Origin: Acidobacteriota bacterium
GTDB lineage: Bacteria; Acidobacteriota; Terriglobia; Terriglobales; SCQP01
Reading direction: 5' to 3'
NCBI GenBank assembly: GCA_021789895.1
Contig: JAJYIU010000021.1
Location: 30 to 64,029, forward strand
DNA: 64,000 nt
The position numbers were made by a program, and so were the translations under genes. The notes under the pieces are model-generated. The model saw nothing but the letters and a program-made list of their open reading frames with translations, had not been told where the DNA came from and made no database searches. Shown piece by piece: positions 20,976 through 37,255 of the stretch; the stretch's first letter is position 1, and each line of letters begins with the position of its first letter.

Positions 20976-20990
20976 CTCGGGAGCTTCCCG

Positions 20991-21676: not shown

Positions 21677-21795
21677 TCCTCATTTCCGGACGGCGGAAAG
21701 TTGCGCCCCTCCGGAGTTGAATACCTATCTTAAACTCATACGCAATAGCCTGTCGCCCAAGGCGGCCCCGGGCGGCGACGGCGGCGGCAGGGCGC

Positions 21796-21824
21796 TTGCG
21801 CGACGGGCCGGGCTTCTCTATGCT
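21796..21824 (+). promoter_or_regulatory. Candidate sigma-70-type promoter for the ligase-1 gene
   Basis: TTGCGC-N17-TATGCT, about 18 nt upstream of the ATG at 21842. Confidence 0.3.
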
Positions 21825-21841
21825 GAAAAGGCTCATTGCGC

Positions 21842-23239
21842 ATGTTTGAAAGCGTCCCCACCCTGCTCGAGAATCTGGTTCTGGGCCGCAGTATCGAGCG
21901 TCGGCTGAATTTTGCCAAGCTCTTGCCACATTGGCTTTTAGCCAGAATTCAAGCCTCGGAATTCCAGCAAACCGTCTGCCGCGCCGGCGAGCATTCGAGC
22001 TACTATCGCCGGCGCTTCGCCGCGCAGGGAATCGAAACGCGGCGAGTTCGGCTGCCAGCCGATTTGGGCGATTTTTACACTACCGCGGCCGATCTGCGCG
22101 CGCTGCCGGTGGATGATTTTCTTTGCGCCCGCCCGCAGGCCGGTTTCGAAACCACCGGCACCACCGCCCGCAACAAGCGCGTTTATTTCTCCAACGAAGA
22201 GGTGCACGACATCGGCTTTGAAGGCGCGGTGGGGCTTTGGAACCTGGGCCTGCGCCCGGAAGACCGGGTGGTGGACGCTTTCGATTACGCCTTTTGGAAT
22301 GCCGGCATTACCCTGCTGCACTCTCTGAATGCCATCGGTTGTTTCCACGTGATCGCTTCCAAGCTGCCGCCGGAGGAGTTCTACGAGCGCGTGCGCGAAT
22401 ACCGTTTCAACGTGCTCATCGTGGATACCGCCTGGCTGGTCACTTTGACAGAAATCGCCGAGCGGCGCGGCGTTTGGCCGGTTAAGTTCATCCTTTCCGG
22501 CAGTGAAAACCTGGCCGAAGCCACCCGCGCCTGGATCGAGCGCGTCTGGGCGGCCAAAGTTTACCAGGCCTACGGGCAGACCGAGTCGCTCGGCGCCACC
22601 GGCATCGAATGTCCGGCGCAGCGCGGCTATCATTTGAACGAATTCAACTTTTTATTCGAGCTGCGCCAGCCGAATGCAGAGGGCTGGGGCGAATTGGTCT
22701 TCACCACCCTGACCCGCAAGGTCATGCCGCTGATCCGCTACCGCAGCAACGATATCACCCGCCTGCTCGACGATGATTGCGGCTGCCCGCTGGCCTGCAT
22801 GCGGAGGATTGACAAGATCGCCGGGCGGGCCGACGAAATCATCTCCTGCGGCATGGGCATGATCAGCCCCTGGATATTCGAAACCTGGCTCTCCGGCTGC
22901 CCCGGCCTCGCCGACGATTGGCAGGTGGCGGTCACCCAGCCTGGCGTGCGCGATCGCCTGCTGCTCCGCCTGGAAAGGTCGGCGGGCGCGCCTCCGGCCG
23001 GGGAGATCGAGGCCGAGCTGACCCGCCGCCTGGAGCAGCGCTTCCCTTATTACTATAAAAACTGGCGCATGGGCATGTACGAGATCGGCTTCGAGTTTCT
23101 GGAGCGTGGATCGCTCCGTCCCGCCGGGGTGCGGCGTAAATTGCGCCGCCTGCTGGATGAGCGCATTCCCACACCCGCCCGCCAGCCGCTCTCGGCCGCC
23201 GTGGAGACGCTAGGATCCGAGTTCCAGAGTCAAGACTGA
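21842..23239 (+). CDS. CapK/PaaK (coenzyme F390 synthetase-like) adenylate-forming ligase, paralog 1
   Basis: FYTTAADLRALP...GFETTGTTARNKRVYFS...YGQTESLG...RKVMPLIRYRSNDITR...GRADEII shows phenylacetate-CoA-ligase-family architecture. It is clearly paralogous to the gene at 32611..33960. The track start at 21836 is a TTG; I prefer the ATG at 21842. Confidence 0.8.
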   Translation: MFESVPTLLENLVLGRSIERRLNFAKLLPHWLLARIQASEFQQTVCRAGEHSSYYRRRFAAQGIETRRVRLPADLGDFYTTAADLRALPVDDFLCARPQAGFETTGTTARNKRVYFSNEEVHDIGFEGAVGLWNLGLRPEDRVVDAFDYAFWNAGITLLHSLNAIGCFHVIASKLPPEEFYERVREYRFNVLIVDTAWLVTLTEIAERRGVWPVKFILSGSENLAEATRAWIERVWAAKVYQAYGQTESLGATGIECPAQRGYHLNEFNFLFELRQPNAEGWGELVFTTLTRKVMPLIRYRSNDITRLLDDDCGCPLACMRRIDKIAGRADEIISCGMGMISPWIFETWLSGCPGLADDWQVAVTQPGVRDRLLLRLERSAGAPPAGEIEAELTRRLEQRFPYYYKNWRMGMYEIGFEFLERGSLRPAGVRRKLRRLLDERIPTPARQPLSAAVETLGSEFQSQD

Positions 23240-23456
23240 GCCAGACACACGGCAATCACTACTTTCGGAGGCTACTCGGGCATGAGTCGCAGCTTGCCTT
23301 CCCCCCGCTTGCATTAAAACCCTTTAATACTCTATTAACCCGGAGTTAATGACGCGTGCCGGAAAATGCCTTTCGGGCTTGTGCCGGACGCCTGGCGCCG
23401 GCTGGGAATTTACCGGCTCCGCGAAAGCGCGGACCAGGGATGGAGAGTATAAACAT

Positions 23457-24749
23457 ATGCCCCTCAAAGCATCCGTATCCCGCGCCGAATCCAATGGCCG
23501 TTTGGGCGTGCTGTTGGCCGGCATGGGCGCAATCTCGACCACACTCATCGCCGGCATCGAAGCGATCAAACAAGGCGTGGGCCGGCCGCTGGGGTCGCTG
23601 AGCCAACTGGCGCTGGCGCCGGATATCGATCCGCGCCATCCGGTGGCGCTGAGCGATTATCTGCGCCTGGACCGCATCGAGAACCTGGTCTTCAGCGGCT
23701 GGGACATCAATCCCGGCACGGCTTACGACGCCGCCCGCCGCGCGGCGGTGATCGAGCCGTCGCTGCTGGAACAGCTCCGTCCCCAGCTCGAAGCCATCGA
23801 GCCGATGCCGGGCATCTACGATCCGCGCTATTTGCGGCGCGGGGAAGGCCGGCGGCTGAAACCGGAAACCAACCAGTACGAGCAGGCCGAAGCGCTGCGC
23901 CAGGACATTCGCGCCTTTCAGCAGCGGCATCAACTGCGGCAGGTGGTGGTGCTGTGGTGCGGCTCGACCGAGGTGTTTTCGACCCCCGGCCCGGCGCACC
24001 AGGGACAGCGCATCTTCGAAGCGGCGATGAAGGCCAACGATCCTTCCATCGCGCCCAGCATGCTGTATGCCTGGGCGGCGTTGCAGGAAGGCTGCGCCTT
24101 TGTCAATGCCACGCCCACGCTGACGGTGGATCTGCCGGTGATGATCGAGCTTTCGGAAGCGCACCGCGCGCCCATCTGCGGCAAGGATTTGAAAACCGGC
24201 CAGACCTGGCTGAAGACCGTGCTCGCGCCCGGCATCCGCCAGCGCATGCTCGGCGTCGCCGGCTGGTTCAGCATGAACATACTGGGCAACCAGGACGGCG
24301 CCGTGCTCGACGACCCGGCCGCATTTCGCAGCAAGGAAGAATCCAAGCTCTCGGCGCTGAACCACATTTTGCAGCCCGAACTCTATCCCGAGCTTTACGG
24401 CCATCTGTCGCATCAGGTCAAGATCAACTACTATCCCCCGCGCGGCGACAACAAGGAAAGCTGGGACACGATCGACCTGCTCGGCTGGCTGGGCTATCCG
24501 ATGCAGATCAAGGTGAATTTCCTCTGCCGCGACAGCATTCTGGCGGCGCCGCTGCTGCTCGATCTGGCGCTGTTTTCGGCGGCCGCGCAGCGCGCCGGCC
24601 GCGGTGGGGTGCAGGAATGGCTGGCTTTCTTCTTCAAGAGCCCGCAAGTGCGCGCCGGCCGCCCGGAACACGACCTTTCGGTGCAGTACCAGCATTTGCA
24701 GGCCGCCTGGAAAGAACTGGCGGAAGCCGCCGTCGGCGTGACCGCCTGA
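23457..24749 (+). CDS. ino1: myo-Inositol-1-phosphate (inositol-3-phosphate) synthase
   Basis: FSGWDIN, FVNATPT, SMNILGNQDG and RSKEESKLSAL correspond to the conserved MIPS blocks (GWDI, NGSPQNT, SYNHLGNNDG, SKxxSK). GGAGAG lies 9 nt upstream of the ATG at 23457. The longer track ORF start (23349) adds a non-homologous leader. Confidence 0.9.
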   Translation: MPLKASVSRAESNGRLGVLLAGMGAISTTLIAGIEAIKQGVGRPLGSLSQLALAPDIDPRHPVALSDYLRLDRIENLVFSGWDINPGTAYDAARRAAVIEPSLLEQLRPQLEAIEPMPGIYDPRYLRRGEGRRLKPETNQYEQAEALRQDIRAFQQRHQLRQVVVLWCGSTEVFSTPGPAHQGQRIFEAAMKANDPSIAPSMLYAWAALQEGCAFVNATPTLTVDLPVMIELSEAHRAPICGKDLKTGQTWLKTVLAPGIRQRMLGVAGWFSMNILGNQDGAVLDDPAAFRSKEESKLSALNHILQPELYPELYGHLSHQVKINYYPPRGDNKESWDTIDLLGWLGYPMQIKVNFLCRDSILAAPLLLDLALFSAAAQRAGRGGVQEWLAFFFKSPQVRAGRPEHDLSVQYQHLQAAWKELAEAAVGVTA

Positions 24750-24762
24750 TCGCCGGGGCAGG

Positions 24763-25572
24763 ATGGCGGCGGCAACGCCGCCCCGTGGAGCAACGAGTTT
24801 GACTCAGAAACCCCTCGCTGAACGTGTCGCCCTGGTCACCGGAGCGGCGCGCGGCATCGGCCGCGCGATCGCCCGCCGGCTGGCCGCCGACGGCGCCAGC
24901 GTGCTGATCAATTACGCCACCAGCCATGAGGCCGCCCAGGCCCTGGCGGAGGAGCTGCGCGGGCTGGGCGTGAAGGCTGAAGCCGTGGCCGCCGACGCCG
25001 CTTCCCCGGCCGGGGTGGCGGCGATGCTCAAGGCGATCGAGAGCGGCTTCGGCAACCGGCTCGACATTTACATCAACAATGCGATTGACGTGGCCGCATC
25101 CGGTCCGGCGCTGAAGATGCGCGCCGCGGGCTGGGAACATACCGTGGATACGAACTCCACGGCATTTCTCACGCTCGCCCAGCGCGCGGCCAAGCTGATG
25201 CAAGGGCGCGCGGGCCGCATCGTCACCGTATCTTCGCTCGGATCGCTCTACTACATTCCCAATTACGCCCCGATCGGCGTCGCCAAGGCCGCCGCCGAAG
25301 CGTTGACCCGTTATCTTGCGGTCGAGCTGGGGCCGCTGGGAATCAACGTGAACGCGGTCTCGGCCGGGCCGGTCGAGACCGATGCCTTGCATCTTTATCC
25401 CAATTACGAGCAGATGAAGGCAACCGCCGCCGCGATCTCGCCCGCGCGCCGCATGGGCATGCCGGAGGATATTGCCGCGGTGGTGGCGTTTCTCTGCTCC
25501 GATGCCGCCGCCTGGATCACCGGCCAGACCGTGATCGCCGACGGCGGGCTGTCTTTATTGAGCGTGCGCTAA
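24763..25572 (+). CDS. FabL-type enoyl-ACP reductase (SDR with Tyr-x6-Lys)
   Basis: VALVTGAARGIGRAIA (NAD(P) binding). SSLGSLYYIPNYAPIGVAKAAAEALTRYLAVEL closely resembles the B. subtilis FabL active-site region as I recall it, and carries Y-x6-K rather than the classical SDR YxxxK. Confidence 0.75.
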   Translation: MAAATPPRGATSLTQKPLAERVALVTGAARGIGRAIARRLAADGASVLINYATSHEAAQALAEELRGLGVKAEAVAADAASPAGVAAMLKAIESGFGNRLDIYINNAIDVAASGPALKMRAAGWEHTVDTNSTAFLTLAQRAAKLMQGRAGRIVTVSSLGSLYYIPNYAPIGVAKAAAEALTRYLAVELGPLGINVNAVSAGPVETDALHLYPNYEQMKATAAAISPARRMGMPEDIAAVVAFLCSDAAAWITGQTVIADGGLSLLSVR

Positions 25573-25597
25573 TCCTTTCCAGGAGATTGTTTCCCCG

Positions 25598-26110
25598 ATG
25601 AGTTCCATGACCAACAGCGCTGAAGAAGTGATGAAAATCCGGCAGACCGCCGACCGCGTGCTGGCGACGCGCGAAGACGAAATCGTCACCAAGGTGCGCC
25701 AGGCGGTAGCCGAGGTGCTGGGCCGCGAAGAGGAGGAGATTCAGCCCTCCGCCAGCCTGATCAAAGATCTCAATGCCGAGTCGCTCGACTTTCTGGACCT
25801 GCTCTTCCGGCTGGAGTCGGCCTTCGGCATTAAAATTCCGCGCGGCGGCATTCAGCGCGCCACCCAGGGCTCGCTGACCGACGCCGAGTTCCAGCAGAAC
25901 GGCATCCTGACGGAAGCCGCGCTCGACCGCCTGCGCATACTCATGCCCGAGGTGGACCCGGCGCGCTTGCAGCCGGGGCTGACCGTGCGCGACATTCCCA
26001 GCCTGTTCACCTCGATCACCTTCGCCCGCCTGGTCGCCTGGCGCATCGGCGAACAGCCCGCCGATGCCCCCAACGCGGCGGGGGCTGCCGCCGCCGAAAA
26101 CAAAGCCTGA
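25598..26110 (+). CDS. Acyl carrier protein, unusually long (170 aa)
   Basis: Phosphopantetheine attachment region LIKDLNAESLDFLDLLFRLE (DSL-type Ser). There are about 35 aa before and about 80 aa after the four-helix core. Confidence 0.8.
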   Translation: MSSMTNSAEEVMKIRQTADRVLATREDEIVTKVRQAVAEVLGREEEEIQPSASLIKDLNAESLDFLDLLFRLESAFGIKIPRGGIQRATQGSLTDAEFQQNGILTEAALDRLRILMPEVDPARLQPGLTVRDIPSLFTSITFARLVAWRIGEQPADAPNAAGAAAAENKA

Positions 26111-26124
26111 GAACTGGCCGCCGT

Positions 26125-26649
26125 ATGCGCTATCTGCTGTTGGACCGCATTCTGGAAATCGAAGCCGGCGCTTTCGCCGTGGGGGTGAAAACTCCCGCGA
26201 TGAGCGAAGATTACTTCGCCGACCACTTCCCCGGCTTTCCGGTCATGCCCGGGGTGCTGCTGGTGGAGGCGATGGCGCAGCTTTCCGGTCGCCTGCTCGC
26301 CTACACGGTGCTGGCCACCGAACGGCGGCAGGTGCTGCCGGTGCTGCTGACGGTGCAGAACGCCCGTTTCCGCCATTTCGTGCGCCCCGGCGACCGGGTG
26401 GTGCTGCGCAGCAAGCTGCTGGCGCTGAACGAGAATGCCGGCCGCTGCCAGGTTATCGCCCAGGTCGGGGAACAGACCGTGGCCACGGCGGAAATGATGC
26501 TCGGCTTCGACGCTGCCGGGGAAAGCGGAGTCCTTCCCGACGCCATTCGCGAGCATCTGTTCAGTTGGGCCAACCGGGTGAATCGCGCCCTGCTGGAAGG
26601 CGCCAAGCTGACCCCGCCGCTGGAGGCGCTGGAGGCGGCGGCATGCTGA
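26125..26649 (+). CDS. fabZ: 3-Hydroxyacyl-ACP dehydratase (FabZ/FabA hotdog family)
   Basis: DHFPGFPVMPGVLLVEAMAQ contains the catalytic His and Glu of FabZ. A C-terminal extension of about 35 aa is present. Confidence 0.85.
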   Translation: MRYLLLDRILEIEAGAFAVGVKTPAMSEDYFADHFPGFPVMPGVLLVEAMAQLSGRLLAYTVLATERRQVLPVLLTVQNARFRHFVRPGDRVVLRSKLLALNENAGRCQVIAQVGEQTVATAEMMLGFDAAGESGVLPDAIREHLFSWANRVNRALLEGAKLTPPLEALEAAAC

Positions 26650-27992
26650 GCCACTCCTCGACCAACGGGCGAACTCCCGGATCGCCCCGCCGGGTGGTGG
26701 TGACCGGCATCGGCGCGGTGACGCCGCTCGGTCTCAATGCCGCCGATACCTGGGCCGGAATTCGCGCCAACCGCTGCGGGGTCGGACCGATCACCGTCTT
26801 CGACGCCTCCCGTTTCGAAACCCGCATCGCCGCCGAAGTTCACGGCTTCGATTTCGCCAAACTGGCAGCGCCTCCCGGCGTCGCCGAAGTGCTCGACCGG
26901 AAAAATTCGTTCGGCTACGCCGCCGCGCTCGAGGCCATGGCTGACGCCGGACTGGCGGATGCCGGCGCATTGAGCCGGGGCAAATTCGCCGAAGGCGGCT
27001 ACAGTTTCGATCCGCTCCGCTTCGGGCTGTCGCTCGGCACCGAAGGCCGCCGCGACAGCCTGCTGCCCGAGCTTGCCGCGCGCAAACTGCTGCCGGCGAA
27101 TGCCGCCGAACGCAAACAACGCCTGGCGGAAGTTCCGCGCAGCGAGTACCTGCGCTACTCCCCCTACGGGCTGGCCTTTGCTTTGAGCACGGCCTTCGAT
27201 CTGCGCGGCCCTTCCAGCACGATTTCCACCGCCTGCACTTCCAGCTCGCAGGCGCTGGGCTATGCCTTGCGGCGCATCCGTTCCGGCGACGCCGATATGA
27301 TGCTGGCCGGCGGGGCGGAAAGCCTGATGGAACCCACGCAGGTTGCCGGCTTCATCCTGCTCGGCGCGCTCTCGAAGCGGAATGACGATCCGCAGCGCGC
27401 TTCGCGGCCCTTCGACGCCGAGCGCGACGGTTTCGTGCTCGCCGAAGGGGCGGCGATGTTGGTGCTGGAAGACGCCTGGCATGCCTATCGCCGCGGCGCG
27501 CGCATTTACGCCGAGCTGGCCGGCTTTGGCGCCTCGATCAACTCCTACCGCCTCACCGACTCGCCGCCCGACGGCGAAGGCCCGATGCTGGCAATGCAGG
27601 CCGCGCTCGCCGATGCCGGCGTGCGCCCCGAGGAGGTGGACTATATCAACGCCCACGGCACCTCGACGCTGCAAAACGACGCCAGCGAAACCACCGCGAT
27701 CAAGCGTTGTTTCGGCCCGCAGGCCCAAGCCATTCCGGTGAGCTCCACCAAGTCCATGACCGGACACATGGTGAACGCCGCCGGCGCGATCGAGGCGATT
27801 CTTTCGCTGCTCGCCATGCGCGACGGTTATCTACCCCCTACCATCAATTACGAGCGCGCCGACCCGGCCTGCGACCTCGACTACATCCCCAACCGCGGGC
27901 GCGCGGCGCAGGTGAAGGTTGCCGTTTCCAATTCCTTCGGTTTCGGCGGCTCCAACGGAAGCGTGGTGCTTCGTGCTTACCCCGAAAAATAA
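26643..27992 (+). CDS. Beta-ketoacyl-ACP synthase I/II type (KS1, intact Cys-His-His)
   Basis: The internal ATG at 26643 (MLSHSS...RRVVVTGIGAVTPLG) overlaps the fabZ stop by 7 nt. ISTACTSSSQA (Cys), NAHGTSTLQND (His), SMTGHMVNAAG (His). Confidence 0.9.
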   Translation: MLSHSSTNGRTPGSPRRVVVTGIGAVTPLGLNAADTWAGIRANRCGVGPITVFDASRFETRIAAEVHGFDFAKLAAPPGVAEVLDRKNSFGYAAALEAMADAGLADAGALSRGKFAEGGYSFDPLRFGLSLGTEGRRDSLLPELAARKLLPANAAERKQRLAEVPRSEYLRYSPYGLAFALSTAFDLRGPSSTISTACTSSSQALGYALRRIRSGDADMMLAGGAESLMEPTQVAGFILLGALSKRNDDPQRASRPFDAERDGFVLAEGAAMLVLEDAWHAYRRGARIYAELAGFGASINSYRLTDSPPDGEGPMLAMQAALADAGVRPEEVDYINAHGTSTLQNDASETTAIKRCFGPQAQAIPVSSTKSMTGHMVNAAGAIEAILSLLAMRDGYLPPTINYERADPACDLDYIPNRGRAAQVKVAVSNSFGFGGSNGSVVLRAYPEK

Positions 27993-29439: not shown

Positions 29440-30221
29440 ATCCGCCCTCCCCACCTGCGTCAACCACGGGCAGCAGCCTCCGCCTCGACGGCCGCACCGC
29501 GCTGGTGACCGGCGCCGGGCGCGGCATCGGCCGCGCCATCGCCCTGCGGCTGGCGCGCGAGGGCGCGCGCGTGGCGGTGAACTACAACCGCAGCCGCAAC
29601 GATGCCGCAGCCGTGGTCGCGGCCATCCGCGCCGAAGGCGGGGAAGCCGAGGCCTTTGCCGCCGATGTCAGCCAATCCGCCGCCGCCCAGCAATTGATCG
29701 AAGCCGTCGAGCGCGGCTTCGGCAAGGTCGACATCCTGGTCAACAACGCCGGCGTGATCCGCGATCAGTTGCTGATCAGCATGGAAGACGACGATTGGCG
29801 GGCGGTCATGAGCGCCAATCTCGACAGCGTTTTTTACTGCTGCCGCGCGGCGGTGCGCTTCATGCTCCGCCGCCGCTACGGCCGCATCATCAACCTGTCG
29901 TCGGTCGCCGGCACCCGGCCGGGCAAGGGTCAGGCCAACTACGCCGCCTCCAAAGGCGGCATCAACGCTTTCACCAAAGCGCTGGCGGCGGAGCTGGCGG
30001 GACGCAATATCACCGTCAACGCCATCGCCCCGGGCGTGATCGAGACCGAAATGTCGCAGGCGATTCGCGACGCCGCGGCCGAGGAAATCCTGGCGCACAT
30101 CGGGCTCAAGCGTTTCGGCCGGGTGGAGGAGATTGCCGGCGTCGCCGCTTTCCTGGCCTCCGCCGATGCCGGCTATATCACCGGCGAGGTCTTGCACGTG
30201 GACGGAGGCTTGCGCGGCTGA
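29436..30221 (+). CDS. fabG: 3-Oxoacyl-ACP reductase
   Basis: The ATG at 29436 overlaps the KS2 stop (ATGA). ALVTGAGRGIGRAIA, NNAG, SSVAG...YAASKGG (YxxxK), HVDGG. Confidence 0.9.
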   Translation: MNPPSPPASTTGSSLRLDGRTALVTGAGRGIGRAIALRLAREGARVAVNYNRSRNDAAAVVAAIRAEGGEAEAFAADVSQSAAAQQLIEAVERGFGKVDILVNNAGVIRDQLLISMEDDDWRAVMSANLDSVFYCCRAAVRFMLRRRYGRIINLSSVAGTRPGKGQANYAASKGGINAFTKALAAELAGRNITVNAIAPGVIETEMSQAIRDAAAEEILAHIGLKRFGRVEEIAGVAAFLASADAGYITGEVLHVDGGLRG

Positions 30222-31246
30222 TGAAAGCGTTGCGCGATGTCGTGGTCACCGGCCAGGGCTGGCTGCTGCCGCCGGGGATGACGCCGGCCAGTTTCGAAAC
30301 CCCGCTGGCGTCCGATGCCGGGCCGGCGGCGCGCCAGTTGCACGGCTTCGATGCCGCCGCCTACGTGGGAGACCCGAAAGTGCTGCGCGCCATGAATCGC
30401 GTTTTCCAGATCGCCGCCGCGGCTTCGGTGCTGGCGATGCGGCCGGCCGGCTTCATTGCCCCCGCCGATCTGGAACGCGCAGGGCTGGTTCCCGAGCGCT
30501 GCGGCATCGCGACCGCGATGACGGAAATCTCGCCGGTGGACGCCAACCTGATCGACGCCATCCGGGACAGGAGCGCCGGTGAGAAGTTCGACCTGGGCGC
30601 TTTTGGCGAGTCGGCGCGCCATCGCCTGCATCCTTTCCGCCGGCTGATGCTGCTGGCTAACATGGCGGCGGCGCACAGTTCCCTGCTGTTCGGGCTGCAG
30701 GGGCCCAGCTTTACCTTCAACTCCGGCACCAGTTCCGGATTGCAGGCGATTCGCGAGGCCTGCTGGACGATCGCCAGCGGACGCGCCGACCTGATGCTGT
30801 GCGAGGCGGCCGATTCACCCCAAAACTCGCTGCATTGCCATCCGGTGACCGAAGCCGCCGCCGCGCTGGTATTGGAAGCGGAAGCAGTAGCCCGTCGCCG
30901 TGGCGCCCGCATCCTGGCCTGTCTGCGACCCGGCCCGGAGCAGCCCTGTCCTTCGCATCCCCGCGTGGGGGAGCCGTCCAGCGAAGCGGCATTTTGTCAT
31001 CACGCGCCGGCTGCCGCCGGGCTGCTCGCCGTCCTGGCGCGGCTGCCTGACGGCCGCGCGGCAGCGGAACGCCAGCAGCCGGGCTCTTTGCGGGAGACGG
31101 CGCCCGGCTACCCGCCGGAGGCGAGCGCGGCGCAGGCGCGGCCGGCAGTTTTATCGAGCTTGGAAATCGTGCCCTGCGCGCCGGACCCAGCCGCGCTGAC
31201 GGGGCCCTCGGCTGCGCTGGCCGCTGAAAAAGTTGGTACGCGATGA
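30221..31246 (+). CDS. Truncated KS-beta/chain-length-factor-like protein (no active-site Cys)
   Basis: The ATG at 30221 shares one base with the fabG stop (TGATG). The N-terminus VVVTGQGWLLPPG is KS-like. The active-site position reads FNSGTSSGLQA (Cys replaced by Thr). There is no HGTGT or GHxxxAAG block, and the C-terminal third is Pro/Ala-rich. Confidence 0.65.
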   Translation: MKALRDVVVTGQGWLLPPGMTPASFETPLASDAGPAARQLHGFDAAAYVGDPKVLRAMNRVFQIAAAASVLAMRPAGFIAPADLERAGLVPERCGIATAMTEISPVDANLIDAIRDRSAGEKFDLGAFGESARHRLHPFRRLMLLANMAAAHSSLLFGLQGPSFTFNSGTSSGLQAIREACWTIASGRADLMLCEAADSPQNSLHCHPVTEAAAALVLEAEAVARRRGARILACLRPGPEQPCPSHPRVGEPSSEAAFCHHAPAAAGLLAVLARLPDGRAAAERQQPGSLRETAPGYPPEASAAQARPAVLSSLEIVPCAPDPAALTGPSAALAAEKVGTR

Positions 31247-32472
31247 ACGACGTTTGGATTACCGGCATGGGCATCGTCTCGCCGCTGGGCGCGGGATTGG
31301 AGGCGCACCGCGCCGCACTCGCCGCCTCCCAATGCGGCATCCGCTATATACACCAGTTCCCGACCGATCGCTTTCCGGTGCGGATTGCCGGCGAGATTCC
31401 CGACCCGGAGCTGCCGCATGCCGCCGCCGGGCGGACCAGCATTCTGCTGGAGCGGGCGCTGGATCAGGCATTTGAGGATGCCGGCCTGGACCTCGCCAGC
31501 GCCAGCCCGCGGCGCGCCTTGAGCTGCGCCTTGGGCAAGCAGACGGTGCGGCTGGAAACCCTGGCGGCGGCCTTGTCCGCGCCCGAATCTGATCCCGCCG
31601 CCGAGCCGCCACGCTGGCCGCGCGAATTCGTTTGTGATTGGGAACGGCGCGAGCCGGCGAGCGAATTAGACCGCCTTGCCCGCCGGGCGGGCGCGCTGGG
31701 CCCGGCTTATTGCTGCTATACCGCCTGCGCCTCCGGCAACGACGCGCTTGGCATGGGCAAGCGGCTGATCGAGCGCGGCGAGGCGGACGTGGTGGTGGCC
31801 GCCGCCGCCGACTGCCAGGTGAATCCGCTCAGCCTGTTGGAATTCGATCTGCTCGACGCCCTCGCTCAAGGCGAGCCGGAGCGTGCCTGCCGGCCCTTTG
31901 ACCGGCAGCGGACCGGCTTCGTGGTGGGCGAAGGTGCGGCGGTGCTGGTGCTCGAATCCGCCCCGCATGCGCGCCGCCGCCGCGCCCGCGCGCGCGGCTA
32001 CTTGAGCGGCTACGGCAGCGCGCTCGATTGTTTTGGCCTGACCAAGTGCCACCCGCAGGGGCGTGGCGCCGCAATGGCGATCGCCGCCGCCCTGGCCGAC
32101 GCCGGCCGCCGCCCCGAAGAAGTCGGCTACATCAACGCCCATGGCACCGGCACCGTGCTCAACGACCGCGCCGAATCCGCCGCGATTTACCACGTCTGGG
32201 GCGCCGGCGCCCGGCGCCTGCCGGTCAGTTCGACCAAATCGATGACCGGCCATCTGATTGCCGCCGCCTCCGCTGTCGAGGCGGTGCTGACGCTGCTGGC
32301 GCTCGAAATGCAACTGCTGCCGGCCACGCTCAACTACGCCACCCCGGATCCGGAATGCGATCTGGCGGTGGTCGCCACACCCCGTTCCGCCGAGTTCCGG
32401 GTGGCGATGTCGAATGGCTTTGGCTTTGGCGGACAAAATTCCGCGCTGGTGCTGGAGGCGCCATTGCCATGA
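31243..32472 (+). CDS. Beta-ketoacyl-ACP synthase I/II type (KS4, intact Cys-His-His)
   Basis: The ATG at 31243 overlaps the preceding stop (ATGA). YTACASGNDA, NAHGTGTVLND, SMTGHLIAAAS, NGFGFGGQNSALVLE. Confidence 0.9.
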   Translation: MNDVWITGMGIVSPLGAGLEAHRAALAASQCGIRYIHQFPTDRFPVRIAGEIPDPELPHAAAGRTSILLERALDQAFEDAGLDLASASPRRALSCALGKQTVRLETLAAALSAPESDPAAEPPRWPREFVCDWERREPASELDRLARRAGALGPAYCCYTACASGNDALGMGKRLIERGEADVVVAAAADCQVNPLSLLEFDLLDALAQGEPERACRPFDRQRTGFVVGEGAAVLVLESAPHARRRRARARGYLSGYGSALDCFGLTKCHPQGRGAAMAIAAALADAGRRPEEVGYINAHGTGTVLNDRAESAAIYHVWGAGARRLPVSSTKSMTGHLIAAASAVEAVLTLLALEMQLLPATLNYATPDPECDLAVVATPRSAEFRVAMSNGFGFGGQNSALVLEAPLP

Positions 32473-32495
32473 AAAGCGGCACGGCCGCTTTTACA
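32472..32495 (+). terminator. Candidate intrinsic terminator after KS4
   Basis: AAAAGCGGC-ACG-GCCGCTTTT forms a perfect 9-bp stem starting at the last base of the stop codon. The short T run is part of the stem. Confidence 0.45.
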
Positions 32496-32610
32496 TTCAG
32501 GCGCGGGAACCGGAACGAACCCCGCGCTGCGGCCTGCCACGCGCTGCGCGGGTACCCGTTCCCGGAGATGAACGCCTGCCCGATTCGGCCGTTGGGAAAA
32601 ATAAGATTAT

Positions 32611-33960
32611 ATGTCCACCCTGCTTGAACCCACCTTCGATTGGCTCGATCGCAACCTGCTGCGCAGCCCGGCGGCGCGGCTGTGGATCGCCCGGCACCTG
32701 ACGCCCGGGTTCATCTCGCTCCTGCAGGCGAGCAAGTTCCGCCGGCTGGTGCGCTATGCCGCGCGGCATTCCAAGTTTTATCGCGAAGCTTTCCGCCAGC
32801 ATGGAATCGACCCGAAGCGCGTCCGCTGCCATGCCGACCTGGGCAATTTCTTTACCACCCCCGAGGACCTGAAGACGCATCCGATCGAGGATTTTCTTTG
32901 TGCTCCCGGGGAGTGCGGTTTCGAGACCACCGGCACCAGCATGGGGATCAACAAGCGGGTTTATTTCTCTTACCAGGAGATGTTCGACTATGGGCGCGAC
33001 GGTGCCGCCGGGCTGTATAACCTCGGGATGCGCCGCGGAGACGTGGTGCTTGACGGCTTCGATTATTCATTCTGGAACGCCCCCTTCACCGCCTATTACT
33101 CGCTGATGCCGCTGCGCTGCCTGCACGTGATCGGCGGCTTCATCGAACCCCAGGAACTGTACGACCGGATGAAGGTGTACCGTCCCAACGTGCTGCTGGG
33201 CGTGCCCACGCACATGGTGCGGGTGACCGAGGTGGCGGAAAAGAACGGCGCCTGGCCGATGAAGTTCATGCTGCTGGGCGGCGAAAATCTCAGCGAGCGC
33301 ACCCGCAAGTATCTCGAATCGGTTTGGCGCGGCGCGCGGGTTTACCTCAGTTACGGCCAGACCGAAAACTTCGGCATCACCGGAATCGAATGTCCCGAAA
33401 AGGGCGGCTATCACGTCAGCGGCCTCAGCCTGGTATCGGAAATCATCGAGCCGGACGAGAATGGTTACGGCGAGATGGCATACTCCACGCTCAATCGCAA
33501 GGTGATGCCGCTGATCCGCTACCGCTCCGCCGACATTACCCGCTGGGCGGACAACGGGACGTGCACTTGCGGGCTGAAAGTCATGCCGCGGCTGGACAAA
33601 GTGGTCGGCCGCACGGACGAGCTGATCAACTGCTCGATGGGCAATATCAGCCCCTACTGGTTCGAGGAAATTCTGCGCGACATCACCGCCGTGAGCGGCG
33701 ACTGGCAAGTGATCGTGCGCCGCGGCGACCGCGACGATGCCATCGAAATGAATCTGGAGCCGGTCAACGGCGCCAACCCGCAGGCGATCCGGGAGCAGGT
33801 GCTGGCCAACATCCAGGCGCGCTTCCCCGATTGCTGGCGTTATTACACCAAGGGCTTTTTCGCGCTCGACATCAAGTTTCATCCCCGGCATAGCCTGGCC
33901 GGGGATGGCCGCAAGCTGCGCCGGCTGATTGACGCCCGGCGCGACGCCTGGAACAAATAA
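32611..33960 (+). CDS. CapK/PaaK (coenzyme F390 synthetase-like) adenylate-forming ligase, paralog 2
   Basis: FFTTPEDLKTHP...GFETTGTSMGINKRVYFS...YGQTENFG...RKVMPLIRYRSADITR...GRTDELI. It is collinear with the 21842..23239 protein over its whole length. Confidence 0.8.
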   Translation: MSTLLEPTFDWLDRNLLRSPAARLWIARHLTPGFISLLQASKFRRLVRYAARHSKFYREAFRQHGIDPKRVRCHADLGNFFTTPEDLKTHPIEDFLCAPGECGFETTGTSMGINKRVYFSYQEMFDYGRDGAAGLYNLGMRRGDVVLDGFDYSFWNAPFTAYYSLMPLRCLHVIGGFIEPQELYDRMKVYRPNVLLGVPTHMVRVTEVAEKNGAWPMKFMLLGGENLSERTRKYLESVWRGARVYLSYGQTENFGITGIECPEKGGYHVSGLSLVSEIIEPDENGYGEMAYSTLNRKVMPLIRYRSADITRWADNGTCTCGLKVMPRLDKVVGRTDELINCSMGNISPYWFEEILRDITAVSGDWQVIVRRGDRDDAIEMNLEPVNGANPQAIREQVLANIQARFPDCWRYYTKGFFALDIKFHPRHSLAGDGRKLRRLIDARRDAWNK

Positions 33961-33994
33961 GCAGCCGAACGCAATGATTGATGGAGTGAATGAT

Positions 33995-35320
33995 ATGTCC
34001 CAACTAGCCTTAAACGGCGGCGCCCGGAGCGTTCCCGCCCAGCCCGGAAAAATCGCCTGGCCGATCGTCACCCCGGAGGACAAGGCCGCGGTGCAGCGGG
34101 TGCTGGATCGCGGGGTCCTGTGGGCCATGACCACGCTGACCGGGTTGAACTGCCCCGAACAGGATGCGCTGGAGCGCGAATTCGCGGAGTTCCTCGGCGT
34201 GCCGTACGCCCTCGCCGTCAACGGCGGCACCGCCGGGCTGCACATGGCGCTGGTGGCCGCCGGGGTGGAAGCCGGGGATGAAGTCATCACCTCCGCCTTT
34301 TCTTTTCTCGCCACTCCCGCCGCCATCCTGCACGCCGGCGCCATCCCCGTCTTCGTGGATGTTGACCCGCGCACCTGGAACATCGATCCGCAACGCATCG
34401 CGGAGAAAATCACTCCCCGCACCCGCGCCATCCTGGCGGTGGACATCCACGGCTTGTGCGCAGATTGGGATGCCATTCTCGAACTGGCCCGCCGCCACAA
34501 CCTGCTGGTGCTCGAGGACGCCTGCCAGGCCCCCGGCGCTTCCTATCGCGGGTGCCCGGCGGGCAGCTTCGGCCGCGCCGCCGGCTTTTCGGTGAATGGC
34601 ACCAAAAACTTCGCCGTCGGCGAAGGCGGCTTCATGGTCACCTCCGACGCTGAAATTCTCGCCCGCGGCGCCTGGCTCAAGCAGGTGGGCGAGACTCTGC
34701 CCGCCGACAACCCCGCCATGCGCCAGCAGCATCTGCTGGCCTGGAATTACCGGGTGCAGGAAATGCCCTGCGCTTTTGCCCGCAGCCAGCTCCGCCGCCT
34801 GGCCGCGGTCAACCAAACCGCGCGCCGCAATGCCGCTATCGTGGACGGCTACCTGCGGGAAACGCCCGGCCTGCGGGGGCCATATATTCCCGACGGCTGC
34901 GTTTCGGTCTATCACAAATACCGCATCACGCTGGTTCCGGAAGAATTAGACACGCCGCTGCGCGGGGTCGAGCTGCGCGACGCCTTCATGGCCGCGCTCG
35001 GCGCCGAGGGCGTGGACGTTGACCTTTGGGGCACCGCTCCTCTGGCGGCGCATCCAATGATCCGGGCGCGGCATGGCTTCGGCCACGGCTTCCCGTGGCG
35101 TCTGGCCGGCGCGCCGGAAAGCTATACCTACCGCGCCGAAGACTATCCGGTCACGCTGGAGATGTTCGCCAACAGTTTCTGCCTGACCAACGACGAGTTT
35201 CCGATTTACGCGCAACCCGAGCCGGTCATGCATGCCTACGGGCGGGCGCTGCAAAAGGTAGCGCAAAACGCGCGCGAGCTGGCGCAGGCGAAAGTGGCCG
35301 CGTGGCAGACGGCAACGTAA
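33995..35320 (+). CDS. DegT/DnrJ/EryC1/StrS family PLP-dependent aminotransferase
   Basis: ALAVNGGTAGLHMALVAAGV...EVITSAFSF.ATP...FVDVD...LLVLEDACQAPGA...GFSVNGTKNF (PLP Lys). GGAG lies upstream of the ATG at 33995; an ATG at 33974 is also possible. Confidence 0.85.
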   Translation: MSQLALNGGARSVPAQPGKIAWPIVTPEDKAAVQRVLDRGVLWAMTTLTGLNCPEQDALEREFAEFLGVPYALAVNGGTAGLHMALVAAGVEAGDEVITSAFSFLATPAAILHAGAIPVFVDVDPRTWNIDPQRIAEKITPRTRAILAVDIHGLCADWDAILELARRHNLLVLEDACQAPGASYRGCPAGSFGRAAGFSVNGTKNFAVGEGGFMVTSDAEILARGAWLKQVGETLPADNPAMRQQHLLAWNYRVQEMPCAFARSQLRRLAAVNQTARRNAAIVDGYLRETPGLRGPYIPDGCVSVYHKYRITLVPEELDTPLRGVELRDAFMAALGAEGVDVDLWGTAPLAAHPMIRARHGFGHGFPWRLAGAPESYTYRAEDYPVTLEMFANSFCLTNDEFPIYAQPEPVMHAYGRALQKVAQNARELAQAKVAAWQTAT

Positions 35321-35329
35321 AACGGCGCG

Positions 35330-36672: not shown

Positions 36673-36682
36673 AAGGAAGCCT

Positions 36683-37225: not shown

Positions 37226-37255
37226 CCTACGATTGGCGCAGCCCAAGGCCAGTTT

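What the first reader, a model, noticed from the sequence alone, without database searches (positions are those of the whole stretch)
21842..35320. Orphan FAS-II-like lipid cluster led by an inositol-phosphate synthase, bracketed by two CapK/PaaK-like ligases and closed by a DegT aminotransferase
Twelve same-strand genes run in this order: ligase-1, MIPS, FabL-type enoyl reductase, 170-aa ACP, FabZ, KS1, KS2 (Cys-His-Asn), FabG, a truncated CLF-like KS, KS4, ligase-2 and a DegT aminotransferase. From MIPS to KS4 the cistrons are separated by at most 25 nt or overlap. The junctions are 13, 25 and 14 nt gaps, then a 7-nt overlap, a 20-nt overlap, ATGA, TGATG and ATGA, so they look like one translationally coupled operon. 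The block encodes a complete private elongation cycle (KS/KR/DH/ER/ACP). It has no FabD, FabH, thioesterase, acyltransferase, CDP-alcohol transferase, inositol monophosphatase or exporter. The ACP-FabZ-KS-KS order recalls the dedicated very-long-chain fatty-acid module of rhizobia (acpXL-fabZXL-fabF2XL-fabF1XL). That module, however, has no cyclitol synthase, adenylating enzymes or aminotransferase. I do not recognise this combination as any characterised pathway. It is not aryl-polyene, not PUFA, not VLCFA-lipid A and not the known bacterial inositol-lipid routes. A plausible product is a specialised, possibly very long or modified acyl chain joined by the ligases to an inositol- or inosamine-derived head group. 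The block is flanked by a convergent tonB on the right and a divergent TPR gene on the left, which gives clean boundaries.
Basis: partly seen in the sequence, partly recalled or inferred. Interest (0 to 1): 0.85.

Follow-up and report, generated by a model that had tools for sequence, protein, structure and literature searches.

The report
Acidobacterial inositol-amine fatty-chain gene cluster
This is a real, conserved and so far uncharacterised operon of uncultured soil Acidobacteria that pairs a private fatty-acid/polyketide machine with a dedicated inositol-phosphate synthase and an aminotransferase, and it most likely makes a chain joined to an inositol-derived amino sugar-like head group.

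Summary
Twelve same-strand genes lie at 21842-35320 with the stated order and junctions. One detail is wrong: KS2 has Gly, not Cys, at the catalytic position. The block therefore holds two KS/CLF-type pairs, as in a type II PKS, rather than four synthases.

The cluster is co-conserved. All 24 species-level genomes whose MIPS is at least 69% identical, all of them uncultured Terriglobales MAGs, carry the cluster in the same order wherever the contig reaches. Of 56 genomes with more distant MIPS, 55 lack it.

The exception led to a sister form, here called "type B" (6 of 6 loci sampled). Type B has the same MIPS-ER-ACP-DH-KS-CLF-KR-CLF-KS core. It also has a divergent operon: ligase, DegT, IolM-type cyclitol dehydrogenase (NCBIfam equivalog, 485 bits against a cutoff of 450) and inositol monophosphatase, plus an MBL-fold hydrolase. 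Cluster-linked MIPS forms its own clade.

Three things remain open: the product, the role of the ligases, and how the window's form manages without its own dehydrogenase and phosphatase. I found no characterised counterpart. I rate it a new variant of a known kind, of moderate to high interest.

The parts
21158..21676 (-). Small cytoplasmic TPR protein (172 aa), divergent from lig1. It is a co-conserved accessory gene of the type A cluster.
   Evidence: Pfam TPR_1/TPR_2. tblastn finds an orthologue (43-82% identity) directly upstream of the cluster in 15 of 18 type A loci that extend upstream. None is found in type B.
21842..23239 (+). lig1: PaaK/F390-synthetase-type adenylate-forming ligase (465 aa).
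   Evidence: PF00501. Best NCBIfam matches are the DVU_1553-family ligase at 162 bits (cutoff 300) and PaaK at 119 bits, all below cutoff. Nearest solved structures are PaaK 4r1l and 2y4o, E about 1e-31. The C-terminal catalytic Lys and the TTGTT motif are conserved in all loci. lig1 is absent next to MIPS in L009 and L018 and inverted in L008.
23457..24749 (+). Dedicated myo-inositol-3-phosphate synthase paralogue (430 aa).
   Evidence: PF07994 at 263 bits and PF01658 at 111 bits. Nearest solved structure is the inositol-3-phosphate synthase 7nwr, E 4e-130. In an NJ tree the cluster-linked MIPS (22 type A plus 5 type B) are monophyletic against 57 others. Of 132 columns that are nearly invariant in non-cluster MIPS, 105 are kept in type A.
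24763..25572 (+). FabL-like SDR, the probable enoyl-ACP reductase (269 aa).
   Evidence: NCBIfam FabL at 280 bits (cutoff 328), well above the FabG models at about 170 bits. It has Tyr168-x6-Lys175, the enoyl-reductase spacing, which is invariant in 30 loci. It always lies directly after MIPS in both cluster types.
25598..26110 (+). Atypical 170-aa acyl carrier protein, with an extra N-terminal helix and a roughly 45-aa insertion before the last helix.
   Evidence: PF00550 matches only residues 32-81, profile positions 2-50 of 67. The DSL serine (Ser62) is invariant. The insertion motif KIPRxGI...ALxRLRxLMPEV...LFTxxTFxRLVAWR is conserved in types A and B. It is the most conserved gene of the cluster, at 73-91% identity.
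26125..26649 (+). FabZ/ApeI-like 3-hydroxyacyl-ACP dehydratase (174 aa).
   Evidence: PF07977. FabZ models score 108 bits, just below cutoff. Orthologues also hit PF22818 ApeI-like. The catalytic His34 and Glu48 are invariant.
26643..27992 (+). KS1: active FabF-type ketosynthase (Cys198-His338-His375).
   Evidence: NCBIfam PRK07314 at 444 bits (cutoff 387) and fabF TIGR03150 at 448 bits (cutoff 494). The triad is invariant in 30 loci.
27973..29439 (+). KS2: non-condensing, CLF-type partner of KS1 (Gly183-His325-Asn362).
   Evidence: Alignment to E. coli FabF puts Gly at the Cys163 position and Asn at the His340 position. The Gly is invariant and the first His is variable (H/Q/Y/N/C/L) across 30 loci. 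The gene overlaps KS1. In L086 the two are fused into one 832-aa ORF.
29436..30221 (+). FabG-type 3-ketoacyl-ACP reductase (261 aa).
   Evidence: TIGR01830 at 302 bits, above the cutoff of 298. Ser156-Tyr169-x3-Lys173 is conserved.
30221..31246 (+). CLF2: truncated KS-like protein (341 aa, N-domain only, no catalytic Cys). It is the probable partner of KS4.
   Evidence: Only PF00109 matches, at residues 31-207. Thr170 sits at the Cys position. That position varies freely in type A (T/A/R/I/L/V/P) and is His in type B. Type B orthologues are 403 aa with a weak C-domain. It is the least conserved gene, at 43-79% identity.
31243..32472 (+). KS4: second active ketosynthase (Cys162-His300-His337).
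   Evidence: fabF model at 340 bits, below cutoff. The triad is invariant in 30 loci. It has an ATGA overlap with CLF2.
32611..33960 (+). lig2: second PaaK-type adenylate-forming ligase (449 aa). It always lies directly upstream of DegT.
   Evidence: NCBIfam DVU_1553 family at 139 bits, FlxY at 104 bits and PaaK at 102 bits, all below cutoff. It is 48% identical to lig1. lig1, lig2 and the type B ligase form three separate clades, and the lig1-lig2 distance is the largest. It is present in every type A locus that reaches this far.
33995..35320 (+). DegT/DnrJ/EryC1/StrS-family PLP aminotransferase (441 aa; alternative start at 33974).
   Evidence: NCBIfam PseC, ArnB and similar models at 190 bits or less, all below cutoff. 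Lys211 of the SxxxK motif is conserved, which marks an aminotransferase and not a dehydratase. Nearest solved structure is Fic25 (8gyh), E 2e-75. The inosose aminotransferases 7b0d and 5w70 score E about 1e-49. In type B the orthologue overlaps the start of the IolM-type dehydrogenase gene.

Best explanation
The block is a vertically inherited biosynthetic operon. I call it 'type A': 12 genes plus a divergent TPR gene. It belongs to an uncultured clade of Terriglobales (Acidobacteriota). It couples a private, highly reducing type II PKS/FAS to an inositol-derived aminocyclitol pathway. The most likely product is a largely saturated acyl chain joined, probably through an amide bond, to an inosamine-type head group, that is, a lipo-aminocyclitol.

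Proposed steps:
1. The dedicated MIPS converts glucose-6-phosphate to inositol-3-phosphate. This is a family-level inference; the core motifs are intact.
2. Dephosphorylation and oxidation give an inosose. Sister type B clusters encode both steps (IMPase and an IolM-type dehydrogenase). The window does not, so type A must receive them in trans. This step is inferred and is the weakest link.
3. The DegT enzyme transaminates the ketone to an inosamine (inferred).
4. The atypical ACP is served by two KS/CLF pairs (KS1/KS2 and CLF2/KS4), FabG, a FabZ-like dehydratase and a FabL-like enoyl reductase, which build the chain from malonyl units. Malonyl transfer and, in most genomes, phosphopantetheinylation would come from housekeeping enzymes. 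The catalytic residues are shown; the heterodimers are inferred.
5. A PaaK-type ligase activates a carboxylate with ATP. Either it couples the finished acid to the amine, or it primes the ACP with a starter acid. Which of the two applies is not resolved.
For: - Gene content and catalytic residues.
- Strict synteny in all 24 genomes with a MIPS at least 69% identical, and absence in 55 of 56 genomes with a more distant MIPS.
- Cluster-linked MIPS forms one clade.
- Type B (6 of 6 loci sampled) has orthologues of the core genes at 31-58% identity. It adds ligase-DegT-IolM-like dehydrogenase-IMPase as one overlapping operon, plus an MBL-fold hydrolase. Its flanks are otherwise unrelated, which delimits a self-contained 15-gene unit.
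- The type B dehydrogenase passes the curated equivalog cutoff for scyllo-inosose 3-dehydrogenase IolM, at 485 bits against 450.
- MIPS, phosphatase, dehydrogenase and DegT-family aminotransferase form the route proposed for the hygromycin A aminocyclitol: PMC10949010.
- The FabL-like Y-x6-K motif supports a saturating reductase.
- The KS1-KS2 fusion in L086 and the overlapping genes support KS/CLF pairing.
- A PPTase inserted after the ACP in L087 supports a carrier-protein-based pathway.
Against: - The window and every type A locus lack the dehydrogenase, the IMPase and the MBL hydrolase, both within the 64 kb and within 10 kb either side. I could not identify a type A counterpart elsewhere.
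- No condensation or acyltransferase enzyme and no thioesterase is encoded in type A. Amide formation by a PaaK-like ligase is an inference from remote relatives, the NatL2/AjiA1-type enzymes, E about 1e-8.
- In flexirubin-type systems such ligases are annotated as starter-activating enzymes (FlxY model).
- The closest solved DegT relative, Fic25, acts on a linear carrier-protein-bound keto acid and not on an inosose (PMC11726168).
- About 20% of the MIPS columns that are otherwise nearly invariant have changed in type A, so an altered substrate or product cannot be excluded.
- There is no experimental or expression evidence.
Confidence: 0.5

Rival explanations
1. Amino-polyol starter model. 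The cyclitol is oxidised and ring-opened to a polyhydroxy keto acid, and DegT transaminates it. A PaaK-type ligase adenylates the acid and loads it onto the ACP as a starter. The KS/CLF pairs then extend it. The product would be a fatty acid with an amino-polyol terminus, not an amide-linked cyclitol.
For: - The type B dehydrogenase is an IolM equivalog. From my own knowledge of the Thermotoga maritima inositol pathway, the IolM diketone product is opened by hydrolysis.
- Type B carries an MBL-fold hydrolase with weak lactonase-type matches.
- The nearest solved DegT relative, Fic25, aminates a linear dihydroxy-keto acid bound to a carrier protein (PMC11726168).
- PaaK-type ligases act on carboxylates, and the FlxY model is annotated as a starter-side acyl-CoA ligase.
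- In type B the ligase is co-transcribed with the cyclitol-modifying genes.
Against: - IolM acts on scyllo-inosose, so a first inositol dehydrogenase would still be needed. None is in either cluster type.
- The MBL protein is unrelated to the known ring-opening hydrolase family. This rests on my own knowledge and was not tested.
- Type A lacks both the dehydrogenase and the MBL protein but keeps MIPS, DegT and the ligases.
Confidence: 0.15
2. Inositol (phosphate) ester or ether lipid with an aminated chain. The inositol-3-phosphate or inositol is used as such for the head group. DegT instead aminates a keto group on the growing or finished acyl chain, for example to give a beta-amino fatty acid.
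For: - Type A encodes no cyclitol dehydrogenase or phosphatase.
- The DegT enzyme's best solved relative works on a carrier-protein-tethered aliphatic ketone.
- The 3-ketoacyl-ACP intermediates made by the two ketosynthases would offer a ketone.
Against: - In type B, DegT is translationally coupled to an IolM-type cyclitol dehydrogenase and an IMPase. That points to a cyclitol ketone as its substrate.
- No CDP-alcohol phosphatidyltransferase, glycosyltransferase or acyltransferase is present to attach inositol.
- In Fic25 the carrier is an amino-group carrier protein, not an ACP (PMC11726168).
Confidence: 0.12
3. The block is a member of an already characterised pathway: rhizobial very-long-chain fatty acid for lipid A, aryl polyene or flexirubin pigment, a cispentacin/coronafacate-type carbocycle, or a bacterial inositol phospholipid.
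For:
- The dehydratase orthologues hit the ApeI-like Pfam family.
- KS/CLF pairs and a PaaK-like ligase occur in aryl polyene and flexirubin systems.
- There are weak matches to the AmcE, AmcF and FlxY models.
Against: - Every pathway-specific curated model scores far below its cutoff: AmcF 235 against 325, AmcE 42 against 140, FlxY 81-118 against 520, FlxB 255 against 340, and the ACP model PRK06508 39 against 83.
- There is no LpxXL-type acyltransferase, no LolA/MMPL export genes, no glycosyltransferase, no ammonia-lyase, and no CDP-alcohol phosphatidyltransferase.
- An enoyl reductase is present, which argues against a conjugated polyene pigment.
- None of those pathways contains MIPS plus DegT.
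Confidence: 0.05
4. Accidental juxtaposition. A housekeeping MIPS and a sugar aminotransferase merely sit beside an accessory fatty-acid operon, with no shared product.
For: The 217-nt and 138-nt gaps could hold internal promoters. Promoter and terminator scans are uninformative.
Against: - The same genes stay together in two deeply diverged architectures whose flanks are completely different.
- MIPS is 13 nt from the reductase gene.
- The cluster-linked MIPS form a clade of their own, on a long branch.
Confidence: 0.03

Closest known systems
Hygromycin A biosynthetic gene cluster (Streptomyces): aminocyclitol branch plus discrete ACP/KS-type enzymes
   Same: The aminocyclitol logic is the same: MIPS (Hyg18), phosphatase (Hyg25), inositol dehydrogenase (Hyg17) and a DegT-family aminotransferase (Hyg8) give an inosamine (PMC10949010). 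From my own knowledge, that amine is amide-linked to an acid built with discrete carrier-protein enzymes and a CoA ligase. Type B clusters carry all four aminocyclitol functions.
   Different: - The dehydrogenase here belongs to the IolM-type Zn-ADH family, not to the GFO/IDH/MocA family of Hyg17 (PF01408).
- There are no sugar, methyltransferase or methylenedioxy genes.
- The chain machinery is two KS/CLF pairs plus an enoyl reductase, so a long reduced chain is expected and not a cinnamate.
- The phylum is Acidobacteriota.
- The window's type A form lacks the phosphatase and the dehydrogenase.
Highly reducing type II polyketide synthases (KS/CLF heterodimer systems such as aryl polyene, ishigamide and flexirubin)
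   Same: - Discrete ACP, KR and DH.
- An active KS paired with a Cys-less partner.
- An ApeI-like dehydratase family hit.
- A PaaK-like ligase related to the FlxY model.
- The same insertion-bearing ACP type occurs in other KS/CLF clusters (L093 and L094).
   Different: - A FabL-like enoyl reductase is present.
- There are two KS/CLF pairs.
- There are no export or lipid-anchoring genes.
- KS1 still scores as FabF (444 bits, above the PRK07314 cutoff).
- MIPS and DegT are unprecedented partners for such systems.
Rhizobial acpXL-fabZXL-fabF2XL-fabF1XL very-long-chain fatty acid module
   Different: - There is no LpxXL acyltransferase.
- The ACP is a different type: 170 aa with an insertion, and it scores 39 bits against a cutoff of 83 on PRK06508.
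- It has extra KR, ER, second KS/CLF pair, MIPS, ligases and DegT.
Aminoglycoside aminocyclitol modules (streptamine, actinamine and 2-deoxystreptamine routes)
   Same: A DegT-family aminotransferase is paired with a cyclitol dehydrogenase. From my own knowledge, a Zn-dependent alcohol dehydrogenase performs the cyclitol oxidation in 2-deoxystreptamine pathways. The DegT here matches the solved inosose aminotransferases 7b0d and 5w70 at E about 1e-49.
   Different: There are no glycosyltransferases, kinases or amidinotransferases. The cyclitol genes are linked to fatty-chain synthesis instead of sugar decoration.
Bacteroides-type inositol lipid pathway (MIPS plus phosphatidylinositol-phosphate synthase)
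   Same: The closest solved MIPS is 7nwr, E 4e-130. From my own knowledge this is the Bacteroides enzyme of that pathway.
   Different: There is no CDP-alcohol phosphatidyltransferase and no PIP phosphatase in or near the cluster. The Bacteroidaceae MIPS loci fetched carry none of the cluster genes.

Membership tests
Type II PKS/FAS with KS/CLF heterodimers | A ketosynthase subunit with an intact Cys-His-His triad | tested here: met
   KS1 has C198/H338/H375 and KS4 has C162/H300/H337. Both triads are invariant in 30 loci.
Type II PKS/FAS with KS/CLF heterodimers | An adjacent KS-fold partner that lacks the catalytic Cys | tested here: met
   KS2 has Gly at the Cys position, invariant in all loci. 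The truncated KS has Thr there, and the position is variable.
Type II PKS/FAS with KS/CLF heterodimers | Physical heterodimer of KS and partner | not testable with these tools
   There are only indirect hints: the genes overlap, and KS1 and KS2 are fused into one ORF in L086.
Type II PKS/FAS with KS/CLF heterodimers | Discrete ACP with a phosphopantetheine-attachment serine, plus discrete KR and DH | tested here: met
   ACP Ser62, the KR Ser-Tyr-Lys triad and the DH His/Glu pair are conserved in all loci.
Myo-inositol-3-phosphate synthase (MIPS) | Both MIPS Pfam domains above their gathering scores, with full-length similarity to a solved MIPS | tested here: met
   PF07994 at 263 bits and PF01658 at 111 bits. 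7nwr aligns over residues 12-416 at E 4e-130.
Myo-inositol-3-phosphate synthase (MIPS) | Retention of the positions that are invariant in other MIPS | tested here: inconclusive
   Of 132 nearly invariant columns, 105 are kept in type A and 118 in type B. The changes lie outside the GKD, NILGNxDG, SKExSK and DSxLAAP motifs as judged by eye. Enzyme activity was not tested.
Enoyl-ACP reductase FabL | Score above the NCBIfam FabL equivalog cutoff | tested here: not met
   280 bits against a cutoff of 328. It is FabL-like but not a FabL equivalog.
Enoyl-ACP reductase FabL | Tyr-x6-Lys active-site spacing of FabI/FabL-type enoyl reductases | tested here: met
   Y168-x6-K175 in the window is invariant in 30 loci. 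The KR, by contrast, has Y-x3-K.
Inosamine (aminocyclitol) pathway of the hygromycin A or aminoglycoside type | MIPS plus a DegT-family aminotransferase in one cluster | tested here: met
   The two are co-conserved in all type A and type B loci.
Inosamine (aminocyclitol) pathway of the hygromycin A or aminoglycoside type | Inositol monophosphatase and cyclitol dehydrogenase in the cluster | tested here: not met
   Both are absent from the window and from all type A loci. Both are present in 6 of 6 type B loci: IolM model at 485 bits against 450, and PF00459.
Inosamine (aminocyclitol) pathway of the hygromycin A or aminoglycoside type | Aminotransferase activity on an inosose | not testable with these tools
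   Sequence is not decisive. The best solved relative is Fic25 (E 2e-75), and the inosose aminotransferases score E about 1e-49.
Rhizobial VLCFA (acpXL-lpxXL) cluster | AcpXL-type ACP and an LpxXL acyltransferase adjacent to FabZXL and FabF2XL/FabF1XL | tested here: not met
   The ACP scores 39 bits against a cutoff of 83 on PRK06508. No acyltransferase gene lies in or beside the block.
Aryl polyene / flexirubin clusters | Pathway-specific models (FlxY, FlxB) above cutoff, export or lipid-anchoring genes present, and no enoyl reductase | tested here: not met
   FlxY scores 81-104 bits against 520 and FlxB 255 against 340. No LolA, MMPL, glycosyltransferase or acyltransferase genes are present, and a FabL-like ER is present.
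Cispentacin (Amc) type II PKS-like cluster | AmcF, AmcE and AmcB equivalog scores above cutoff | tested here: not met
   AmcF scores 235 against 325 (KS4) and 206 (KS1). AmcE scores 42 against 140. AmcB scores 17 against 80.
Phenylacetate-CoA ligase PaaK | Score above the PaaK equivalog cutoff | tested here: not met
   The scores are 113-119 bits (lig1) and 94-102 bits (lig2), against cutoffs of 646-700. The fold family is the same but the substrate is unknown.

The most novel reading that the evidence does not exclude
The cluster family (type A in Terriglobales, type B in other uncultured soil bacteria) makes a previously unknown class of lipo-aminocyclitols: N-acyl inosamines or streptamine-like diamines. 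These would serve as lineage-wide membrane or envelope lipids of abundant soil Acidobacteria. A dedicated type II synthase builds them, and its two KS/CLF pairs and insertion-bearing ACP set an unusual chain length. In type A, the second ligase and the loss of the dehydrogenase, phosphatase and hydrolase would mark a rewired route. Examples would be acylation at two positions, or use of inositol phosphate intermediates.
Probability: 0.25. Interest if true: 0.78.

Novelty: new variant of a known kind. Interest (0 to 1): 0.6.

Why it matters
Acidobacteriota are among the most abundant soil bacteria, yet almost nothing is known about their specialised lipids and metabolites. Most lineages, including every carrier of this cluster found here, are uncultured.

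The unit is conserved and self-contained. It has a dedicated MIPS paralogue, an IolM-derived cyclitol dehydrogenase, a DegT aminotransferase and a private KS/CLF synthase.

If the reading is right:
- It would be the first aminocyclitol pathway tied to fatty-chain synthesis.
- It would be, to my knowledge, an aminocyclitol pathway outside the classical actinomycete antibiotic producers.
- It would define a new head-group chemistry for bacterial lipids or a new natural-product family.
- It would give lipid biomarker studies a gene-to-molecule target in soils.

The 15-gene type B unit is compact enough, at about 14 kb, for direct synthesis and heterologous expression. The question is therefore testable now.

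Tried and rejected
- **Rfam scan** of 20900-36400 at E up to 1 gave no RNA family, so there is no riboswitch in the 217-nt or 138-nt gaps.
- **Promoter and terminator scans** gave counts at or near shuffle expectation and are uninformative.
- **AlphaFold2 of the ACP** from a single sequence gave pLDDT 59. That is too poor for a fold search, so none was run.
- **Literature.** Searches on PDB codes and gene combinations found nothing on this cluster. They did identify Fic25 as the 8gyh-8gyj entry set (PMC11726168) and gave the hygromycin A route.
- **Search for a type A counterpart of the type B dehydrogenase**. Below the type B clade (at least 68% identity) the next hits (52% or less) are ordinary catabolic IolM genes in LacI/IolG/ABC-transporter contexts. 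No partner was found.
- **GFO/IDH/MocA gene at 4152-5297**, considered as a trans-acting inositol dehydrogenase. Its best match is levoglucosan dehydrogenase (362 bits) and IolG scores only 115 bits against a cutoff of 355. Nothing links it to the cluster, and its region lies outside the stretches fetched for related loci, so conservation was not tested.
- **Reading the FabL-like SDR as the missing cyclitol dehydrogenase** was considered and rejected. It has the Y-x6-K enoyl-reductase spacing and its FabL score is far above all dehydrogenase models.
- **Taxon names for type B proteins.** Cluster-member look-ups gave almost nothing. The "Betaproteobacteria" label of L085 could not be checked.
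- **DnaA-box search** around the GC-skew switch gave chance-level counts.

Full report
**1. What is in the window**

The window has 61-74% G+C. Between 21842 and 35320 the + strand carries twelve genes. Their frames show the GC3 bias of real genes in this genome, 0.77-0.84.

- a PaaK-type adenylate-forming ligase (lig1);
- a myo-inositol-3-phosphate synthase with both MIPS domains;
- an SDR whose best model by far is the enoyl reductase FabL;
- a 170-aa ACP;
- a FabZ-type dehydratase;
- a FabF-like ketosynthase (KS1);
- a second KS-fold protein (KS2);
- a FabG ketoreductase, above the TIGR01830 cutoff;
- a KS N-domain-only protein of 341 aa;
- a further ketosynthase (KS4);
- a second PaaK-type ligase (lig2);
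- a DegT/DnrJ/EryC1/StrS aminotransferase.

The junctions I computed are 217, 13, 25, 14, -7, -20, -4, -1, -4, 138 and 13 nt. The left flank is a divergent TPR gene followed by TetR, enoyl-CoA hydratase and aldehyde dehydrogenase genes. The right flank is a convergent TonB gene and a response regulator. No Rfam family lies in the region. Promoter and terminator scans are not above chance.

**2. Corrections to the observation**

Aligned to E. coli FabF, KS2 has Gly at the catalytic Cys163 position. KS2 has Asn at the second His position. The truncated KS has Thr at the Cys position and no C-terminal domain.

I checked these positions across 30 related loci:

- KS1 and KS4 keep Cys-His-His without exception.
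- The KS2 Gly is invariant, while its first His drifts (H/Q/Y/N/C/L).
- The Cys position of the truncated KS drifts freely.

So the block encodes two active ketosynthases, each next to and overlapping a non-condensing KS-fold partner. That is the KS/CLF arrangement of type II polyketide synthases. In one related locus KS1 and KS2 are fused into a single 832-aa ORF, which fits a physical pair.

The SDR after MIPS has Tyr-x6-Lys, the spacing of FabI/FabL enoyl reductases. The FabG has Tyr-x3-Lys.

The ACP is not simply extended. It has an extra N-terminal helix and an insertion of about 45 residues before the last helix, with a motif that is strongly conserved.

**3. Is the combination conserved?**

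A protein search with MIPS found a clade at 69-88% identity, all labelled Terriglobales or Acidobacteria MAGs. Identity then drops to 60% or less for MIPS of many phyla.

A scan of one genome per species returned 80 loci. I searched them with all twelve proteins:

- Every one of the 24 loci with MIPS at 69% identity or more carries the cluster in the same order, as far as its contig reaches. Eleven loci show all twelve genes. In L008, one of these, lig1 is inverted. Eight show MIPS through DegT. Six (including L007, which also appears among the 24) are cut by a contig end.
- Of the 56 loci with more distant MIPS, 55 have none of the other genes.

Two further metagenome contigs show the same cluster. 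One of them has an ACPS-type phosphopantetheinyl transferase inserted after the ACP.

The divergent TPR gene is present in 15 of 18 loci with upstream DNA. lig1 is missing next to MIPS in two loci and inverted in one. All carriers are uncultured.

**4. The sister architecture**

The one exception among the distant MIPS loci was L034. It carried a rearranged version with extra genes.

A search with DegT showed about 80 protein clusters at 52-57% identity, below the Terriglobales clade. I inspected the context of five of them. Together with L034 that makes six loci, and all six have one architecture, here called type B:

- MIPS-SDR-ACP-(MBL-fold gene on the opposite strand)-dehydratase-KS-KS-KR-KS(403 aa)-KS;
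- divergent from ligase-DegT-Zn-dependent alcohol dehydrogenase-inositol monophosphatase. The last three genes overlap.

The flanks differ in every locus, which delimits a self-contained 15-gene unit.

The type B dehydrogenase passes the curated equivalog cutoff for scyllo-inosose 3-dehydrogenase IolM, at 485 bits against 450. Its relatives outside the cluster are ordinary catabolic IolM genes.

The orthologues that could be compared between types A and B are 31-58% identical. In a neighbour-joining tree the cluster-linked MIPS of both types form one clade, apart from 57 other MIPS. The link between the inositol enzyme and the chain-building genes is therefore old and maintained.

**5. What it most likely does**

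Type B encodes, in one overlapping operon, the steps proposed for the hygromycin A aminocyclitol: MIPS, phosphatase, cyclitol dehydrogenase and DegT-family aminotransferase (PMC10949010). The dehydrogenase, however, comes from a different family.

The rest of the cluster is a complete reducing elongation cycle on a dedicated ACP. The most economical reading is a reduced acyl chain joined to an inositol-derived aminocyclitol.

How the two halves are joined is not shown. The ligases belong to the PaaK fold, and no curated model claims them. There are two possibilities:

- The ligase re-activates the released acid and forms the amide. The MBL-fold protein of type B could be the releasing hydrolase.
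- The ligase loads a starter acid onto the ACP, as flexirubin-type FlxY is annotated to do on the starter side.

The nearest solved relative of the DegT enzyme is Fic25 (E 2e-75). Fic25 aminates a dihydroxy-keto acid on an amino-group carrier protein (PMC11726168). Inosose aminotransferases follow at E about 1e-49. Sequence alone therefore does not fix the substrate.

**6. What does not fit**

The window's own form (type A) has no dehydrogenase, phosphatase or MBL hydrolase, either in the 64 kb or within 10 kb of any type A locus. Instead it has a second ligase that is deeply diverged from the first. The three ligase groups are separate clades, and the lig1-lig2 distance is the largest.

I could not find a type A partner dehydrogenase. 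A GFO/IDH/MocA gene 16 kb upstream looks like a levoglucosan-type dehydrogenase and not like IolG.

About a fifth of the MIPS positions that are otherwise nearly invariant have changed in type A. So type A either relies on housekeeping enzymes or runs a modified route. This keeps my confidence in the specific product at about 0.5.

**7. Comparison with known systems**

The block is not a member of:

- the rhizobial very-long-chain fatty-acid module: no LpxXL, and a different ACP type;
- aryl polyene or flexirubin clusters: an enoyl reductase is present, there are no export or anchoring genes, and the models score below cutoff;
- the cispentacin system: the Amc models score far below cutoff;
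- the inositol phospholipid pathways: no CDP-alcohol phosphatidyltransferase.

These rest.

It works like a highly reducing type II PKS/FAS combined with a hygromycin-A-like aminocyclitol branch.

The insertion-bearing ACP type is widespread, with 412 representatives at E of 1e-10 or better in a library clustered at 50% identity. It also occurs in unrelated KS/CLF clusters without MIPS: L093, which carries halogenase-like genes, and L094. The chain-building core therefore belongs to a larger, poorly studied group of type II systems. The MIPS, DegT and ligase partnership is specific to types A and B.

**8. Verdict**

The finding is an uncharacterised, conserved biosynthetic cluster family of uncultured soil bacteria. 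It is built from known enzyme families in a combination that the searchable literature does not describe. I rate it a new variant of a known kind, with interest 0.6.

The most direct test is heterologous expression of the compact type B unit, with isotope labelling.

Noticed in passing
window 21158-21676 (- strand): The small TPR protein that diverges from lig1 is co-conserved with the cluster in 15 of 18 type A loci. It is absent from type B. Its role is unknown; it has no signal peptide by eye.
   Followed up: partly
window 25598-26110; L093 10001-10507; L094 2740-3213: The ACP belongs to a widespread subfamily with an insertion of about 45 aa before the last helix. There are 412 representatives at E of 1e-10 or better. 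The same ACP type sits in other KS/CLF clusters without MIPS. One has a KSIII, an ANL ligase and three tryptophan-halogenase-like genes. The other is a minimal SDR-ACP-SDR-KS-KS set.
   Followed up: partly
L086 2080-4578 (- strand): KS1 and its Cys-less partner KS2 are called as one fused 832-aa ORF with two complete KS domains. I did not check whether this is a true fusion or a sequencing error.
   Followed up: no
L087 1972-2415: One type A cluster has an ACPS-type 4'-phosphopantetheinyl transferase inserted between the ACP and the dehydratase.
   Followed up: no
L034 3900-4862 (- strand) and 19588-21213 (+ strand); L090 15348-16979: Radical SAM genes, one with a B12-binding domain, flank some type B clusters but not all of them. 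They could be optional tailoring enzymes or unrelated neighbours.
   Followed up: no
window about 36000-38500: GC skew switches from about -0.05 to about +0.2 at roughly 38.0 kb. There is a local G+C dip to 0.57 and few ORFs. There is no cluster of DnaA boxes (4 matches in the whole window, chance level). This could be a replication-related switch, a strand-bias effect or an assembly joint.
   Followed up: partly
window 2316-7494: A sugar-oxidation gene group: an aldo/keto reductase; a GFO/IDH/MocA oxidoreductase whose best match is levoglucosan dehydrogenase (362 bits, cutoff 650); a xylose-isomerase-like TIM-barrel protein; and a ROK-family protein.
   Followed up: partly
window 51500-53209 (- strand): A BshC-like protein with both bacillithiol-synthesis BshC domains, next to DHDPS-family and nucleotidyl-transferase genes.
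   Followed up: no
window 13590-19469 (- strand): A molybdopterin xanthine-dehydrogenase-family large subunit, a PaaA/PaaC-like protein, an aldehyde dehydrogenase and an enoyl-CoA hydratase lie under a TetR regulator. This is a probable aromatic or heterocycle catabolic operon, and it is shared only with the closest relative, L005.
   Followed up: no
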